DNA of 53,265 nucleotides from a virus (IMGVR_UViG_3300050505_000145:1-53265); one strand, 5' to 3'; shown: positions 1-17,431, counted from the stretch's first letter. Made by a program: numbers and translations. The notes: generated from the letters alone by a model not told the origin.

Positions 1-314
1 AACATCGCCTTCTCTTCGGCGCGATGCTGTTGCTCCTGCCACGCATCCTCGAGTTGGCAGTGAATCGACTTGGCGATCTCACCGTCGAATTCGAACTTCT
101 TGCTCGGACCGGTCGACGTAACCTCGGCGCGATAGACTCCCTGGAATTCCGTGATCGTCAGGAAGTTCTCCTTGTCGACAGGACCATCCGGCGTTCCGGA
201 CGTCCCGAAGATCTTCCACTCGACGACGACAGTGGGATCCGCACCTTTCGTTGTCCACTCACGACGAGAGACCACGTCAGCGCGATACGGTCCGATCTTG
301 TTGGTAGCAGTCAT
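1..314 (-). CDS. hypothetical protein, 3'-truncated by the window edge (MTATNKIGPYRADVVSRREW...)
   Basis: Not in ORF track; ATG at 314 preceded by GGGAGG-TTAGAAG; frame open to position 1 by manual translation. Confidence 0.8.
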   Translation of the reverse strand, partial: MTATNKIGPYRADVVSRREWTTKGADPTVVVEWKIFGTSGTPDGPVDKENFLTITEFQGVYRAEVTSTGPSKKFEFDGEIAKSIHCQLEDAWQEQQHRAEEKAM

Positions 315-315
315 C

Positions 316-376
316 TTCTAACCTCCCGACGCCCATCACTGGGCGTTTCGGCCTTCCGGCCTCGTCAGGGAAGGAA
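316..376 (-). ncRNA. type I hammerhead ribozyme HHR1; predicted cleavage after GUC between 328 and 327
   Basis: Minus strand: UUCCUUCC CUGACGA GGCC-GGAA-GGCC GAA ACGCCCA-GUGA-UGGGCGU C / GGGAGGUUAGAA; full CUGANGA/GAAA/UH core and three pairable stems. Confidence 0.93.
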
Positions 377-452
377 TCAACCACACGATCCGTCGTTCCA
401 CATATTGGTGGAAATACGGATCTCCGATGGGAAAGAACAGTGATTTGAACAT
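336..452 (-). CDS. possible 38-aa ORF (MFKSLFFPIGDPYFHQYVERRIVWLIPSLTRPEGRNAQ) reading into HHR1
   Basis: ATG overlaps upstream stop (TAATG); stop lies in the HHR1 stem III loop; could instead be a non-coding hairpin. Confidence 0.3.
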   Translation of the reverse strand: MFKSLFFPIGDPYFHQYVERRIVWLIPSLTRPEGRNAQ

Positions 453-697
453 TACACCGTCTCCTCGGTTACCGACGCATGGAACGCATACAGATCAATC
501 GTGATCTGCAGCTGATTCTCCGACTTCGGATCCATCTGCACGAACTGCTTCTGATCCGCGACCAGCTTGTCGCGATAGGCTTTCGCCTCTTCGAGTGACT
601 GGAAGACCTCGAAGGAATCCTGAACAGGTTCCCGCAGGTCGAGCCACTTGAATGTCAGAACCCATAGCGATCCAGGTTTCCGATTGGTAGCACTCAT
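452..697 (-). CDS. hypothetical protein (81 aa)
   Basis: ATG preceded by GGGAGG SD that belongs to HHR2. Confidence 0.85.
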   Translation of the reverse strand: MSATNRKPGSLWVLTFKWLDLREPVQDSFEVFQSLEEAKAYRDKLVADQKQFVQMDPKSENQLQITIDLYAFHASVTEETV

Positions 698-698
698 C

Positions 699-760
699 TT
701 CTAACCTCCCGACCGCGCTCGTCGCGCGGTTTCGCCATTCCTGGCTCATCAGGAGAGGAA
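699..760 (-). ncRNA. type I hammerhead ribozyme HHR2; predicted cleavage between 711 and 710
   Basis: Minus strand: UUCCUCUC CUGAUGA GCCA-GGAA-UGGC GAA ACCGCGC-GACGA-GCGCGGU C / GGGAGGUUAGAA. Confidence 0.95.
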
Positions 761-952
761 CTACGCTGCTTGCTTGAACACCTGCGCGACCGTCGCCATG
801 ACGGTCGTCAGATGCCAGCAGTGACGGTAGAACCGCCATCCGCTGCACGTGCAATAGATGACGCCGTCCTTGCCGAGTCGAACCTCGTGCATCTTGTTCG
901 AGGACTTCGACGCGAACGTCGCCAACACAGTCTTGGTAGCCTTCTTCAACAT
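761..952 (-). CDS. stand-alone SWIM zinc-finger protein
   Basis: CTCSGWRFYRHCWH = CxC-xn-CxH; SD from HHR3. Confidence 0.85.
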   Translation of the reverse strand: MLKKATKTVLATFASKSSNKMHEVRLGKDGVIYCTCSGWRFYRHCWHLTTVMATVAQVFKQAA

Positions 953-953
953 T

Positions 954-1020
954 TTCTGACCTCCCGACGCGGAGTAGACAACTCCGCGTTTCGTCCTTCT
1001 GGACTCCTCAGGAGAGGAAC
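954..1020 (-). ncRNA. type I hammerhead ribozyme HHR3; predicted cleavage between 966 and 965
   Basis: Minus strand: UUCCUCUC CUGAGGA GUCC-AGAA-GGAC GAA ACGCGGAGU-UGUCU-ACUCCGCGU C / GGGAGGUCAGAA. Confidence 0.95.
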
Positions 1021-1464
1021 TTACTTCCGGCGCTTGGGACCGTTCTTCACAGTCACCTCGGTCGGCTGCTCGGCGGGAACGACCTCACCGACGCCTTCCT
1101 TCGGATCGATCACGAAGCCGTCCTTGTCGACGACGTCGCCCTCGACCACGCGCTCCTGGCTCTTGACGGGCTCAGGAGCCGCCGGAGCCTGCGGAACGGA
1201 CGTGAACGAGACGCGACGCGTCCCGCCCTCGTTCGCCTCGCGCGGAACCCAGCCATTGTCCAGGGACTCCTGGACGCGAGCCTTGAACCGCGCCTCCGCC
1301 GCCTCGGCGTTGTCGAAGTTCTCCTGGCAACCGGTGAGCGCCTTCATCCCGGGATTCTTGATGGAGACGCCGACGTTGAAGCCGGTCTTGCCCTCGTGAG
1401 CGTAGACCTTGAGCTTCGAACCGGCCGAACGGAACTTCGCTTCGCGCATGAACTTGGTAGCCAT
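1021..1464 (-). CDS. hypothetical protein, possibly WGR-like domain plus low-complexity tail
   Basis: AAAGGGAG SD; C/G-ending codon bias; FDNAEAAEARF...LDNGW resembles the WGR C-terminal helix (weak). Confidence 0.8.
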   Translation of the reverse strand: MATKFMREAKFRSAGSKLKVYAHEGKTGFNVGVSIKNPGMKALTGCQENFDNAEAAEARFKARVQESLDNGWVPREANEGGTRRVSFTSVPQAPAAPEPVKSQERVVEGDVVDKDGFVIDPKEGVGEVVPAEQPTEVTVKNGPKRRK

Positions 1465-1469
1465 TGTGA

Positions 1470-1895
1470 CACTCCCTTTCGACAGAGGTCGGAATTGACC
1501 TCTGACGCTCCTGGGCTTGTGGAGCCAGGACGCGCTTTACCGACGCTCACACATTGCGAGCGTCGCCACTCAGCTTGGGAGATTGCTACCGCAGCTAGCT
1601 GAACCGACTCGGGGACTCGAGGTCATCGCCATTCCTGGTTACTCAGAAATTTCACCAGGACTTTGGAGGCACTGGCCCATAGGGCGCTGGCTTTCTTCTC
1701 CGGCTTTCCTGCGGATTTCGCAGGCTCGTCCTACCGCGCTTACGTTCAGCGGTCGCCGCTTATTTGGCTCTTGGATTCGGGACAGCCCCGACCCACCAGG
1801 GAGCGCTTAGGTTTTCAGAGAGCCGAGGATTGGCCGCGAGGGCCGCTTACCAATCCCCTTGGGCTAGTCGCCCGCAGGCCCGAACCGAACTTACA
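1470..1895 (-). ncRNA. long structured 5' leader / candidate novel ncRNA
   Basis: No convincing ORF; dense hairpins (CAGAGGUC/GACCUCUG, CGACGCUCGC/GUGAGCGUCG, UCCUGGU/ACCAGGA, CCUGCG/CGCAGG, GGCUCU/AGAGCC) between a promoter and the first SD. Confidence 0.65.
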
Positions 1896-1900
1896 CCACT

Positions 1901-1928
1901 ATCATACCCTACCTGCTGCGAAAGTAAA
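1901..1928 (-). promoter_or_regulatory. sigma70-like promoter of the ribozyme operon
   Basis: TTTACT-N16-TATGAT immediately upstream of the structured leader. Confidence 0.6.
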
Positions 1929-2507
1929 GCTGCTTTATTCAACAAAGTGACTGATTCCTTAGGGATTTGCCAGGCTTTTTGAAGAATGTGGAGTTTTGCT
2001 AAGGAAAATCATCGATGTTTACGAATGTTTACACAATGACTCGGTTTCTAGGCTCCTACCCGTAAGATAGACTGCTGCCTATACTTACGATTTTGAGGGC
2101 TCCCAGCCGACCCCAGCACATCTCCAAACCGCCAACGGCCCTATACCCTTTGGGGTCTCCGTTTGCCTCGCCACGGGCTCCCAATACGGCCTCGGGTTGC
2201 GGAGAGCAGGCCGACGGTTTTCGTGAAAGCCAAACTTATGGGCTATTCGGCAACAAGGAGAGCAGGTCAAGAGTTTTCGTCGACCTACAGAACCGTCGGT
2301 TTGTAAAGCCCAAACGACCGAAAGTTTACACAATCGCTCACTTTCGCATTCGGGCCAGCAGCTCTCCAGAACGGCAATAGCCTACCGTATCATCTAGCTC
2401 GAATTGAGAGGACCTTGGGTCGGTGCAGAGGTCTATCCAAATCTCCTGTGTTTGCTGTCCGAACTATCCGAAAGTCCTGCGTATCTGAAAGAAACAGCAA
2501 ACTTCTC

Positions 2508-2548
2508 GAACGAATCTGATTTATTTCTACAACAAGTCGTAGTATACT
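2508..2548 (+). promoter_or_regulatory. phage promoter motif (GAACGAATC...TCGTAGTATACT)
   Basis: TCGTAGTATACT recurs at 4222 and 51771; ATG lies 7 nt after the -10, suggesting a leaderless mRNA. Confidence 0.65.
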
Positions 2549-2555
2549 AGGTGTA

Positions 2556-3842: not shown

Positions 3843-4177
3843 GTGATGACTCTCCAGTCTGGCATACGCATGTCAAGGTGGTTGACATCCGCTACACAAA
3901 GAAAGATGGTTGGTTTGCCTTGTTCGAGGAGCCAGACGGCACCACAACATGGATGAACCAACCGGTGAAGCCAACAATTGGCGACGAGCAAATCCTCTAC
4001 ATGATCAAAGCGGATTCGGAGGAAAGTCGTCAGATGACTGCGTTGGCCAAACGAGGTGCGTCTCAGGAAGAAGCAGAACAATTTCTGAAGGACGTGTTGG
4101 AGCGCTATGGTGCAGTGTGTCACCATACATGGGACGAAGCACGAGCACTCATCCACAACACGAAACGACCGCATTGA
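3839..4177 (+). CDS. hypothetical protein
   Basis: ATGA overlap with the upstream gene; ends before the next promoter. Confidence 0.7.
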   Translation: MSDDSPVWHTHVKVVDIRYTKKDGWFALFEEPDGTTTWMNQPVKPTIGDEQILYMIKADSEESRQMTALAKRGASQEEAEQFLKDVLERYGAVCHHTWDEARALIHNTKRPH

Positions 4178-4192
4178 TCGTGAAGGAAATCT

Positions 4193-4234
4193 GAACGAAT
4201 CCTGAACCGCGTCCGAGGATTTCGTAGTATACTT
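4193..4234 (+). promoter_or_regulatory. phage promoter motif copy
   Basis: GAACGAATC at the same spacing to TATACT as at 2508; 17-mer GATTTCGTAGTATACTT identical to 51767-51783. Confidence 0.65.
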
Positions 4235-4250
4235 GTAGGCGTATCGGTTC

Positions 4251-4673
4251 ATGACTATCGCGTTCACCGGAACAAGACGTGGGATGACTCCTGCGCAATA
4301 CGAGAGGGTCGGATTCGTCTTCCGACATCTGGCTGCGTCAGAGCTGTCCCATGGTGGTTGTGTCGGAGCGGATCGCGAAGCGCACCAGATTGGTGGTGCA
4401 ATGCGGATCCGAGTCTTTCCGTCCAACGACGAGCAACGCCACTGGGCGCTGCTCGAAGCACGACCAACACCAATCTCAATCGAACATGTGCAAGATCCAC
4501 TGCGAAGAAACAAGATTATGGTGGATCGGAACGATGTTCTCGTTGCAGCACCAGCCAAGATGGGCGAATTGCTTCGGTCTGGGACCTGGATGACCATCCG
4601 ATATGCTCGCAAGATGAAGCGTCCGGTCTACATCTGCTGGCCGGACGGAACTGTCACCGAGGAGAAACGATGA
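4251..4673 (+). CDS. SLOG (DprA/YpsA-like) nucleotide-binding protein
   Basis: IAFTGTR, HGGCVGAD, RRNKIMVD, SGTWMTIRYA motifs. Confidence 0.75.
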   Translation: MTIAFTGTRRGMTPAQYERVGFVFRHLAASELSHGGCVGADREAHQIGGAMRIRVFPSNDEQRHWALLEARPTPISIEHVQDPLRRNKIMVDRNDVLVAAPAKMGELLRSGTWMTIRYARKMKRPVYICWPDGTVTEEKR

Positions 4674-17270: not shown

Positions 17271-17431
17271 TGATCTCCTCCCTTAGACGAATTGACTGGT
17301 GGCATCGGATTGATACCATTCGCTCTTAGCAAATCCTGGAGACGTTCGAGTTCGGCTGACATCTTGGCGATCTGCAACGTCAGTTCGCCAATCATCAGCT
17401 TCGCGAAATAGTCGGTGTCCTTCTTCAACAT
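17267..17431 (-). CDS. 54-aa coiled-coil protein (MLKKDTDYFAKLMIGELTLQIAK...)
   Basis: Not in ORF track; TAATG and ATGA overlaps with both neighbours. Confidence 0.65.
   Translation of the reverse strand: MLKKDTDYFAKLMIGELTLQIAKMSAELERLQDLLRANGINPMPPVNSSKGGDQ

What the first reader, a model, noticed from the sequence alone, without database searches (positions are those of the whole stretch)
328..965. Ribozyme-bounded units could circularise into single-gene circular mRNAs
Seen: the 3' strands (GGGAGGU[U/C]AGAA) and 5' strands (UUCCU[CU/UC]C) of stem I are nearly identical across copies. The 255-nt unit 965-711 (SWIM gene) and the 383-nt unit 710-328 can therefore pair their own 5' end with their own 3' half-ribozyme and rebuild a full hammerhead across the ends. 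Known: this tandem topology yields circles in viroids and retrozymes, and RtcB ligates 5'-OH to cyclic phosphate. Inference: the phage may make exonuclease-resistant circular mRNAs or shuffled units.
Basis: inference. Interest (0 to 1): 0.85.

Follow-up and report, generated by a model that had tools for sequence, protein, structure and literature searches.

The report
Five-hammerhead array cutting a phage operon
A soil phage places a self-cutting hammerhead RNA in front of each of several tiny genes so that every cut starts exactly at that gene's ribosome-binding site; RNA circles are chemically possible but nothing found here shows that the phage makes or needs them.

Summary
Three canonical type I hammerheads lie on the minus strand and cut at 966|965, 711|710 and 328|327.

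Two metagenome contigs of the same phage run past the window's end and show two more hammerheads. The real object is therefore a five-ribozyme array bounding four small-gene units.

In all five copies the 3' strand of stem I is GGGAGG. That hexamer is the Shine-Dalgarno site of the next gene, 5-7 nt before its ATG. Stems II and III covary freely between copies.

The end-to-end compatibility is therefore explained by the ribosome-site constraint. In 35 other tandem phage arrays only 14 of 76 units are fully compatible. A reverse-direction control scores the same as the forward direction. Similar hammerheads that mask the ribosome site also occur singly in complete phage genomes.

Most likely the array cuts a polycistronic transcript into single-gene mRNAs and unmasks each ribosome site. 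Circular mRNAs remain possible but untested. No RNA data exist, and no RtcB was found in the window. The circle idea and the gene-flanking arrays were already published in 2011.

The parts
954..1019 (-). Hammerhead HH1, type I. It cleaves between 966 and 965. The stem I 3' strand GGGAGG (965..960) is the ribosome-binding site of gene B.
   Evidence: 81.4 bits; Rfam RF00163, 23.9 bits, below the gathering score of 34.
699..760 (-). Hammerhead HH2, type I. It cleaves between 711 and 710. GGGAGG (710..705) is the ribosome-binding site of gene C.
   Evidence: 87.9 bits.
316..376 (-). Hammerhead HH3, type I. It cleaves between 328 and 327. GGGAGG (327..322) is the ribosome-binding site of gene D.
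   Evidence: 85.4 bits.
1021..1464 (-). Gene A, 147 aa, the first gene of the operon. It has no hammerhead in front. Its stop codon lies 1 nt before the 5' strand of HH1.
   Evidence: no family at threshold.
761..952 (-). Gene B, 63 aa, with a CxC...CxH SWIM-like zinc motif that is below the family threshold. Its stop codon abuts HH2.
   Evidence: SWIM 13.1 bits against cut-off 19.6; PHROG zinc finger, E 0.0056.
452..697 (-). Gene C, 81 aa, unknown function.
336..452 (-). 38-aa open frame that runs into HH3. It is doubtful as a gene.
   Evidence: no family.
3..314 (-). Gene D, cut off by the contig end. It is 119 aa in the longer contig L144 (3581..3940).
711..965 (-). Ribozyme-bounded unit 1, 255 nt: the 5'-OH ribosome site, gene B and the body of HH2.
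328..710 (-). Ribozyme-bounded unit 2, 383 nt: gene C, the doubtful small frame and the body of HH3.
1465..1928 (-). Probable long structured leader of the operon. A promoter-like site lies at 1928..1901.
   Evidence: consensus match only; no open frames; fold z-score -3.0.

Best explanation
The window holds the first three of five tandem type I hammerhead ribozymes in a phage operon of very small genes. The operon is transcribed leftward, from about 1900 to beyond position 1.

Each ribozyme sits between a stop codon and the next start codon. In four of the five junctions the stop lies 0-3 nt before stem I or overlaps it by 1 nt; before HH3 there is a 75-nt gap.

In each copy the 3' strand of stem I is the next gene's Shine-Dalgarno site (GGGAGG). 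Self-cleavage cuts the polycistronic RNA into one- or two-gene mRNAs. Each begins with a 5'-OH at the first G of its ribosome site. Each ends in a compact ribozyme body carrying a 2',3'-cyclic phosphate.

Before cleavage the ribosome site is hidden in stem I. After cleavage the short stem I can open and translation can start. A ribosome finishing the upstream gene could also unwind stem I.

The interchangeable stem I strands follow from all copies having to carry the same ribosome site. They may also let gene cassettes recombine at the ribozymes without breaking them.

What is shown here: ribozyme anatomy, covariation, array extent, ribosome-site placement and the comparative statistics. What is inferred: actual cleavage, unmasking of the ribosome site, and linear RNAs as the main products.
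For: Anatomy and array extent:
- The core and three helices are complete in 5 of 5 copies.
- Across the five copies 97.9% of cells pair. Ten of 19 pairs change on both sides, with 0 of 500 shuffles as high. Nine of the 11 pairs in stems II/III covary. The six proximal stem I pairs never change on the 3' side.
- Contigs L144 and L145 are 99.2% identical to the window (21 differences in 2600 nt). They show HH4 and HH5 downstream, at 45.3 and 61.8 bits.

Ribosome-site placement:
- GGGAGG is followed by ATG after 7, 7, 7, 5 and 7 nt.
- The same hexamer serves as the ribosome site of genes that have no ribozyme, for example at 17282.
- The predicted unpaired probability of the hexamer rises from 0.06-0.26 in the precursor to 0.25-0.97 in the released 3' product.
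- Net stem I binding is weak, -1.6 to -9.8 kcal/mol.

Conservation:
- None of the 34 variant places listed inside the array fall in the 320 nt of ribozymes, out of 1725 nt. The naive binomial P is about 0.001, but the variants are linked.
- None of the 13 differences between window and L144 in positions 1-1464 fall in HH1-3.

Comparison with other hammerheads:
- Of 247 unique type I hammerheads found by my script, 100 have a ribosome site and start codon within 36 nt after the cut, and 9 have it inside stem I.
- Single hammerheads of the in-stem-I design occur in complete phage genomes G006 and G007, one hit each.

Literature:
- Perreault 2011 showed cleavage of three such arrays in vitro, and of one in E. 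coli, and proposed processing into single-gene mRNAs (passages).
- Synthetic type I hammerheads with the ribosome site in an extended stem I control translation in E. coli by cleavage (passages in PMC7445771).
Against: - No RNA data exist for this phage, so neither cleavage nor product topology has been observed (one search listed no RNA holder).
- Rfam's own models do not reach threshold. RF00163 scored 23.9 bits for HH1 against a gathering score of 34, and gave no hit for HH2 or HH3.
- Unmasking of the ribosome site rests only on thermodynamic prediction, and is small for HH3 (0.20 to 0.25).
- HH4 uses an AUC triplet and a 6-nt loop II, and scores lowest.
- In other arrays neighbouring hammerheads share stem I (identity 0.67 against 0.35 between arrays) more than they share stems II/III (0.59/0.52 against 0.49/0.42). 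The ribosome-site argument cannot explain that, because most of those stems are not ribosome sites. Some further constraint on stem I exists that I have not identified.
Confidence: 0.66

Rival explanations
1. After double cleavage each unit pairs its 5' GGGAGG with the stem I strand of its own 3' ribozyme. It is then closed into a circular single-gene mRNA, either by the reverse hammerhead reaction or by host RtcB. The circle resists exonucleases and is translated from its internal ribosome site.
For: - All four units of the five-ribozyme array are 6/6 compatible. This is the only one of 16 arrays with three or more hammerheads for which that holds.
- The lowest-energy and centroid folds of both window units join the ends.
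- Unit sizes of 255-434 nt lie within or just above the 170-400 nt range of type I hammerhead retrozyme circles. RtcB circularises such monomers 30-80% in vitro (PMC7229834).
- Engineered ribozyme-flanked mRNAs are circularised by native RtcB and translated in E. coli, with an estimated efficiency of at least 18% (PMC12628768).
Against: - Compatibility is fully accounted for by the ribosome-site hexamer. The spacer beyond it differs in HH4 and HH5.
- There is no directional signal in 76 units of other arrays: forward mean 4.54 against reverse 4.41, with forward higher in 24 and lower in 19. Only 14 of 76 are 6/6.
- Solitary hammerheads of the same design exist.
- The circle would rebuild an active ribozyme and would again hide the ribosome site. 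No rod-like competing fold is predicted. In the engineered Tornado system the ribozymes cut themselves off the two ends of the coding RNA (PMC12628768); that the finished circle therefore carries no ribozyme is recalled from the design and was not in a passage I read.
- Hammerhead self-ligation of retrozyme monomers was only 1-3%.
- No RtcB and no RNA ligase family was found in the 53-kb contig, which is 69% complete. The host is unknown.
- Perreault 2011 could not detect circles from such arrays, with data not shown.
Confidence: 0.12
2. Cassette modularity at the DNA level. The uniform junction made of ribozyme plus ribosome site is kept because it lets small genes be swapped, lost or gained by recombination inside the ribozymes. 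Any chimeric ribozyme that results still pairs and still provides a ribosome site. This can hold alongside the processing function.
For: - One DNA contig of run X5 (depth 17.3) reads the 5' half of HH5, then 14 other letters that complete a different 7-bp stem III, then the 3' strand of HH4 and gene E. It also carries a joint 4009 to 4339 (tables 5 and 5c).
- Contigs of four runs break around HH4 (table 8), and the window's own contig ends there.
- Neighbouring hammerheads in other arrays share stem I but not the inner stems, equally in both directions.
- Perreault 2011 notes that the genes between clustered hammerheads are not constant.
Against: - This rests on one short contig, laid at 80% likeness with 30 letters on the shorter side. 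It could come from a related phage or from an assembly path.
- No recombinase or other specific mechanism was identified.
- Conserved stretches of 10-14 nt are short for homologous recombination.
Confidence: 0.12
3. The hammerheads cleave poorly or not at all in vivo. They act mainly as stem-loops that hide the ribosome site, so that each gene is translated only when a ribosome finishing the upstream gene unwinds stem I (translational coupling).
For: - In four of the five junctions the stop codon lies 0-3 nt before the stem I 5' strand or overlaps it by 1 nt.
- The ribosome site is predicted to be mostly paired in the precursor.
Against: - All 15 core positions are canonical in 5 of 5 copies, and none of the listed variants fall in the ribozymes. 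A plain masking hairpin would not need the catalytic core.
- Arrays of this kind cleaved efficiently when tested (Perreault 2011).
Confidence: 0.06

Closest known systems
Clustered hammerhead ribozymes flanking single genes or short gene blocks in prophages (Perreault et al. 2011, PLoS Comput Biol, PMC3088659; passages read)
   Same: Several hammerheads on one strand bound individual small phage genes of varying identity. Processing of a polycistronic RNA into single-gene mRNAs was proposed, and circular or spliced products were mentioned as an alternative.
   Different: Here all five are type I and all carry the downstream gene's Shine-Dalgarno hexamer as the stem I 3' strand, so every stem I is interchangeable. 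The units are very short (255-434 nt). That paper's main text does not contain the words Shine, ribosome binding or RBS. Its figures and supplementary alignments could not be seen.
Synthetic type I hammerhead switches with the Shine-Dalgarno site in an extended stem I (E. coli aptazyme platform; PMC7445771, passages read)
   Same: The ribosome site is paired in stem I of a type I hammerhead in the 5' UTR, and cleavage makes it accessible, which controls translation.
   Different: Those are engineered, single, ligand-controlled, and use an extended stem I. Here the design is natural, repeated five times in an operon, and the ribosome site starts at position 1.1, directly at the cut. No aptamer is present.
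Retrozymes and viroid-like circular RNAs with tandem hammerheads (Cervera and de la Pena 2020, PMC7229834; de la Pena 2020 review, PMC7761336)
   Same: Tandem type I hammerheads a few hundred nt apart. The monomer ends rebuild the ribozyme, and the 5'-OH and cyclic phosphate ends are substrates of RtcB-type ligases.
   Different: Retrozyme units are repeats of one non-coding, highly self-paired sequence. Here each unit is a different protein-coding gene with a branched fold, lies in a DNA phage, and no circles have been seen.
Tornado-type engineered circular mRNAs in E. coli (PMC12628768, passages read)
   Same: A coding RNA with ribosome site and stop codon lies between two self-cleaving ribozymes, and native RtcB can close it.
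   Different: In Tornado the ribozymes cut themselves off the ends of the coding RNA (PMC12628768); that purpose-built ligation stems remain and that the circle is ribozyme-free is recalled, not from a passage read. Here ligation would rebuild a complete, active hammerhead and bury the ribosome site again.
Ribozyme insulators of synthetic biology (RiboJ; recalled, no call made)
   Same: A self-cleaving ribozyme in front of a gene gives a fixed 5' end that does not depend on upstream sequence.
   Different: RiboJ is an engineered single part with an added hairpin. The comparison rests on recall only.

Membership tests
Hammerhead ribozyme, type I (Rfam RF00163, clan CL00010) | Conserved catalytic core: C3 U4 G5 A6 N7 G8 A9, G12 A13 A14, the A15.1-U16.1 pair, and H17 at the cut | tested here: met
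   Present in 5 of 5 copies. The triplet is GUC in four copies and AUC in HH4.
Hammerhead ribozyme, type I (Rfam RF00163, clan CL00010) | Three helices around the core, with stems II and III closed by loops and stem I open (type I topology), supported by covariation | tested here: met
   97.9% of cells pair. Ten of 19 pairs change on both sides, with 0 of 500 shuffles as high, and slid controls pair at 39-48%.
Hammerhead ribozyme, type I (Rfam RF00163, clan CL00010) | Score at or above Rfam's gathering threshold | tested here: not met
   No match at gathering. HH1 scored 23.9 bits against 34, and HH2 and HH3 were not listed. My own model gave 81-88 bits. I read this as a gap in the Rfam seed for long-stem-III phage forms. 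It is not evidence against the fold.
Hammerhead ribozyme, type I (Rfam RF00163, clan CL00010) | Site-specific self-cleavage giving 5'-OH and 2',3'-cyclic phosphate ends | not testable with these tools
   No RNA run holds the sequence. This needs in vitro transcription.
Clustered prophage hammerhead arrays (Perreault 2011) | Two or more hammerheads on one strand bounding single genes or short gene blocks of a phage | tested here: met
   Five hammerheads bound four units of one or two small genes. The window is a siphovirus-like phage contig with portal, tail tube and DNA polymerase genes. In the loci fetched, 35 other non-redundant arrays of 2-9 hammerheads were found.
Retrozyme or viroid-like circular RNA | Unit ends rebuild the hammerhead (identical repeat ends) | tested here: met
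   6/6 stem I pairs in 4 of 4 units, and equal cofold energies.
Retrozyme or viroid-like circular RNA | Non-coding, highly self-paired (rod-like) unit that competes with the ribozyme fold | tested here: not met
   The units are protein-coding and fold into branched structures in which stems II and III of the ribozyme persist.
Retrozyme or viroid-like circular RNA | Circular RNA observed (back-junctions, RNase R resistance) | not testable with these tools
   No RNA holder was listed.
Ribozyme-plus-RtcB circular mRNA (Tornado-like) | An RtcB-type ligase is available | tested here: inconclusive
   PF01139 is absent from the 53-kb contig, which is 69% complete, and no RNA ligase family appears among 23 Pfam families. 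The host is unknown, and many bacteria carry RtcB (10 of 14 control genomes).
Ribozyme-plus-RtcB circular mRNA (Tornado-like) | The ribozymes are removed from the ligated product so that it cannot cut itself again (recalled as a defining feature; the passages read state only that the ribozymes self-cleave at both ends) | tested here: not met
   Each unit keeps the whole ribozyme body, so joining the ends restores an intact hammerhead.

The most novel reading that the evidence does not exclude
In an RtcB-bearing host the four ribozyme-bounded units are closed into small translatable circles. That would make this phage operon the first natural source of ribozyme-made circular mRNAs in bacteria. 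The uniform stem I, which doubles as the ribosome site, would serve both as the ligation splint and as the translation start signal. The same uniformity would allow units to be religated in new orders.
Probability: 0.1. Interest if true: 0.85.

Novelty: new variant of a known kind. Interest (0 to 1): 0.42.

Why it matters
What clustered hammerheads do in phages has been an open question since 2011 (review PMC6765202: 'additional work is needed').

This array is a compact test case. It has five canonical ribozymes in 1.5 kb. Each is fused to a ribosome site, so that cleavage, translation start and possible end-joining all act on the same six nucleotides.

If cleavage unmasks the ribosome site, this is a natural counterpart of the ribozyme insulators and switches built in synthetic biology. 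If circles form, it would be a new route to stable mRNAs in bacteria.

The census made here adds two points for the field. Arrays of up to nine type I hammerheads exist in viral contigs. Neighbouring hammerheads share stem I but not the inner stems, and that pattern is not explained.

Tried and rejected
- RNA evidence: the look-up of sequencing runs listed no RNA holder, only six DNA runs from rhizosphere metagenomes. Back-junctions therefore could not be looked for.
- Rfam: nothing at gathering score.
- RtcB (PF01139): no match in the window.
- Relatives by protein: the search for related loci with the 147-aa and 81-aa proteins found none in viral contigs.
- Exact stem I plus core pattern: 0 other viral contigs.
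- A loose pattern returned mostly chance hits. Eight of the 80 listed loci held a real hammerhead.
I did not pursue it.
- Whole-genome covariance-model scans scored only 150 of several thousand candidates and missed a hammerhead I already knew of. I dropped that route and wrote my own pattern-and-pairing detector.
- I considered gene conversion as the reason for the shared stem I. I rejected it because the two stem I strands flank the diverged stems II and III.
- I checked for an endless reading frame in a circle. Units of 255 and 387 nt are multiples of three, but every gene has a stop codon.
- Not used: complex prediction, structure prediction and protein homology searches. The small proteins are not the question here.

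Full report
WHAT IS THERE

The window is an IMG/VR virus contig of 53,265 bases, linear, estimated 69% complete. Read on the minus strand, its left end holds three intergenic elements with the full type I hammerhead (HH) layout. The order is: stem I 5' strand, CUGANGA, a 4-bp stem II with a tetraloop, GAAA, a 7-9 bp stem III, GUC, then the stem I 3' strand.
- HH1 is 1019..954, cut at 966|965.
- HH2 is 760..699, cut at 711|710.
- HH3 is 376..316, cut at 328|327.

The signal is far above chance. A core pattern matched 3 times against 0 in 100 shuffles. A covariance model built from the three copies scored them at 81-88 bits, with the next window hit at 12 bits. Rfam itself does not reach threshold: there was nothing at gathering score, and HH1 alone scored 23.9 bits against 34 for RF00163.

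THE ARRAY IS LARGER THAN THE WINDOW

A metagenome scan for the ribozyme's 3' half found two contigs, L144 and L145. They are 99.2% identical to the window, with 21 differences in 2600 nt, and they continue past window position 1.

They carry two more hammerheads, HH4 (45.3 bits, AUC triplet) and HH5 (61.8 bits). The operon reads as follows:
- gene A (147 aa), then HH1
- gene B (63 aa, SWIM-like but below threshold), then HH2
- gene C (81 aa), then HH3
- gene D (119 aa), then HH4
- genes E (67 aa) and F (41 aa), then HH5
- gene G (63 aa)

After gene G come a hairpin and then genes on the opposite strand. The cut-to-cut distances are 255, 383, 434 and 387 nt. None of the small proteins reaches a family threshold.

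THE KEY ANATOMICAL POINT

In 5 of 5 copies the stem I 3' strand is GGGAGG. It begins at the cut and is followed by ATG after 5-7 nt. GGGAGG is also the ribosome site of genes in this phage that have no ribozyme.

Across the five copies 9 of the 11 pairs in stems II and III change on both sides. The six proximal stem I pairs never change on the 3' side, and change only C/U opposite G on the 5' side. HH4 and HH5 have other spacers.

So what all copies share, and what makes their ends interchangeable, is the ribosome-binding hexamer.

In four of the five junctions the upstream stop codon lies 0-3 nt before the stem I 5' strand or overlaps it by 1 nt. Gene C's stop is 75 nt before HH3.

TESTS OF THE CIRCLE IDEA

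The idea is physically permitted. Each ribozyme body binds any of the three 3' strands equally, with net binding of -1.6, -5.8 and -9.8 kcal/mol. The lowest-energy and centroid folds of both units join their own ends.

Ribozyme-made ends are RtcB substrates. Type I retrozyme monomers of 170-400 nt are circularised 30-80% by RtcB but only 1-3% by self-ligation (PMC7229834, passages). Engineered ribozyme-flanked mRNAs are circularised by native RtcB and translated in E. coli (PMC12628768, passages).

Several results weigh against it being the purpose of the array.

(a) The ribosome site explains the compatibility.

(b) Comparative census. I fetched about 400 loci, 3.5 Mb in total. They came from patterns that require a GNAA-capped 4-bp stem II in at least one hammerhead per locus. 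I scanned them with my own detector, which requires at least 5 of 6 stem I pairs within each ribozyme.
- The detector recovered all five known copies. It found 349 type I hammerheads, 247 of them unique.
- There were 59 arrays of two or more. I dropped 23 as redundant, meaning half or more of their members had already been seen. I did not use the 162 singles. Some of the 36 arrays kept are homologous arrays of related phages, so they are not independent.
- In the 35 other arrays, the 76 neighbouring units have closure scores of 6/6 in 14, 5/6 in 31, 4/6 in 19 and 3 or fewer in 12. The mean is 4.54.
- The reverse pairing (3' strand of the downstream ribozyme with 5' strand of the upstream one) has no role in circles. 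Its mean is 4.41, with forward higher in 24, lower in 19 and equal in 33.
- The baseline between arrays is 2.8.
- Of the 16 arrays with three or more hammerheads, only this one is 6/6 throughout.

Compatibility of neighbours therefore decays while pairing within each ribozyme is kept by compensatory change. No directional selection for closure is visible.

(c) Hammerheads with the ribosome site in stem I also occur alone. These are L018, L080, L043, L032, L069, L126 and L125 by eye, and L178, L069 and L126 by script. Two of them lie in genomes rated complete that have a single hit each, G006 and G007.

(d) A closed unit would contain a complete ribozyme, and no rod-like alternative fold is predicted.

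(e) No RtcB and no RNA ligase family was found among 23 Pfam families from 55 open frames. Only an ATP-dependent DNA ligase was found.

(f) No RNA data exist.

(g) Perreault et al. 2011 described clustered hammerheads flanking single prophage genes and showed that three arrays cleave. They mentioned circular or spliced products but could not detect them, with data not shown.

MOST LIKELY MECHANISM

The array cuts a polycistronic transcript into single-gene mRNAs that begin with a 5'-OH exactly at the ribosome site. It thereby releases that site from stem I. The predicted unpaired probability of the hexamer is 0.06-0.26 before cleavage and 0.25-0.97 after.

This mirrors engineered type I hammerheads with the ribosome site in stem I (PMC7445771). 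Purifying selection on the ribozymes is suggested by two counts:
- 0 of 34 listed variant places inside the array fall in the 320 ribozyme nucleotides.
- 0 of 13 differences between window and L144 fall in HH1-3.

The variants are linked, so these are not independent trials.

WHAT REMAINS UNEXPLAINED

In other arrays neighbours share stem I (identity 0.67 against 0.35 between arrays) much more than stems II or III (0.59 and 0.52 against 0.49 and 0.42). Most of those stem I sequences are not ribosome sites.

Gene conversion cannot do this, because the stem I strands lie outside the diverged inner stems.

One DNA contig in run X5 has a different ribozyme in front of gene E. It carries the HH5-like 5' half and a new stem III. 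This hints that genes are exchanged at the ribozymes. A uniform stem I would make such chimeras functional. That reading is compatible with the main one.

PRIOR WORK AND NOVELTY

Arrays of this kind, and the circle speculation, are in print.

I found no paper describing natural hammerheads whose stem I is the ribosome site. That rests on full-text searches, and on word searches of Perreault 2011. Subscription journals and supplements were not covered.

This scan noted a similar masking arrangement with type II hammerheads on other DNA (e1-6129560). I did not check it.

I rate this a new variant of a known kind and of moderate interest. The circle reading stays open at about 10%.

Noticed in passing
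L144:3944-4013 and L144:4338-4398 (just beyond window position 1, minus-strand downstream): Two further hammerheads, HH4 and HH5, with genes E, F and G (small CxxC zinc-ribbon-like proteins). The window's contig ends about 50 nt before HH4, at a place where contigs of four runs also break.
   Followed up: yes
window 1465-2555, minus strand: About 1.1 kb without credible open frames lies upstream of the operon. It is GC-rich and predicted to be structured (z-score -3.0 for 1465-1900). A promoter-like site lies at 1928..1901. No Rfam match up to E 10. This could be a long leader or an undescribed RNA.
   Followed up: partly
window 1461-1454, 937-930, 691-684, 308-301 (minus strand): The octamer GCTACCAA recurs 3-15 nt after the ATG of genes A, B, C and D, giving Ala-Thr-Lys/Asn near each N-terminus. 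It is absent from genes E-G. It could be a trace of cassette duplication or a shared signal.
   Followed up: no
L144:4000-4370, run X5 (tables 5 and 5c): One DNA contig (depth 17.3) joins 4009 to 4339. It reads the 5' half of HH5, then 14 other letters, then the 3' strand of HH4 and gene E. So a strain variant has a different or chimeric hammerhead before gene E. A second allele of gene E with 8 changes in 142 nt occurs in three runs.
   Followed up: partly
L210 (minus strand), L248 (minus strand), L215, L273 and others (viral contigs): Arrays of up to nine type I hammerheads spaced 340-2900 nt apart. Neighbours share stem I (for example xTCTAA/TTAGAx) but not stems II and III. This sharing of stem I is unexplained.
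   Followed up: partly
window 2680-53214 (members of alignment A6; exact genes not resolved): The phage encodes a DNA hypermodification set: the 5-hmdU DNA kinase helical domain, an amino acid:DNA transferase, a thymidylate synthase homologue and radical SAM/SPASM. It also encodes a VapE-like primase/helicase, a family A DNA polymerase, a SNF2 helicase, an ATP-dependent DNA ligase and lambda-like tail genes.
   Followed up: no
L124:11877-13700 and L127/L134 (G003, G004): In these arrays the ribosome site lies outside the ribozyme. A leader of 15-25 nt after the cut (for example AACCTTAGNTGGAGA in L124) is repeated in front of each gene. The repeated module there is ribozyme plus leader plus ribosome site.
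   Followed up: partly
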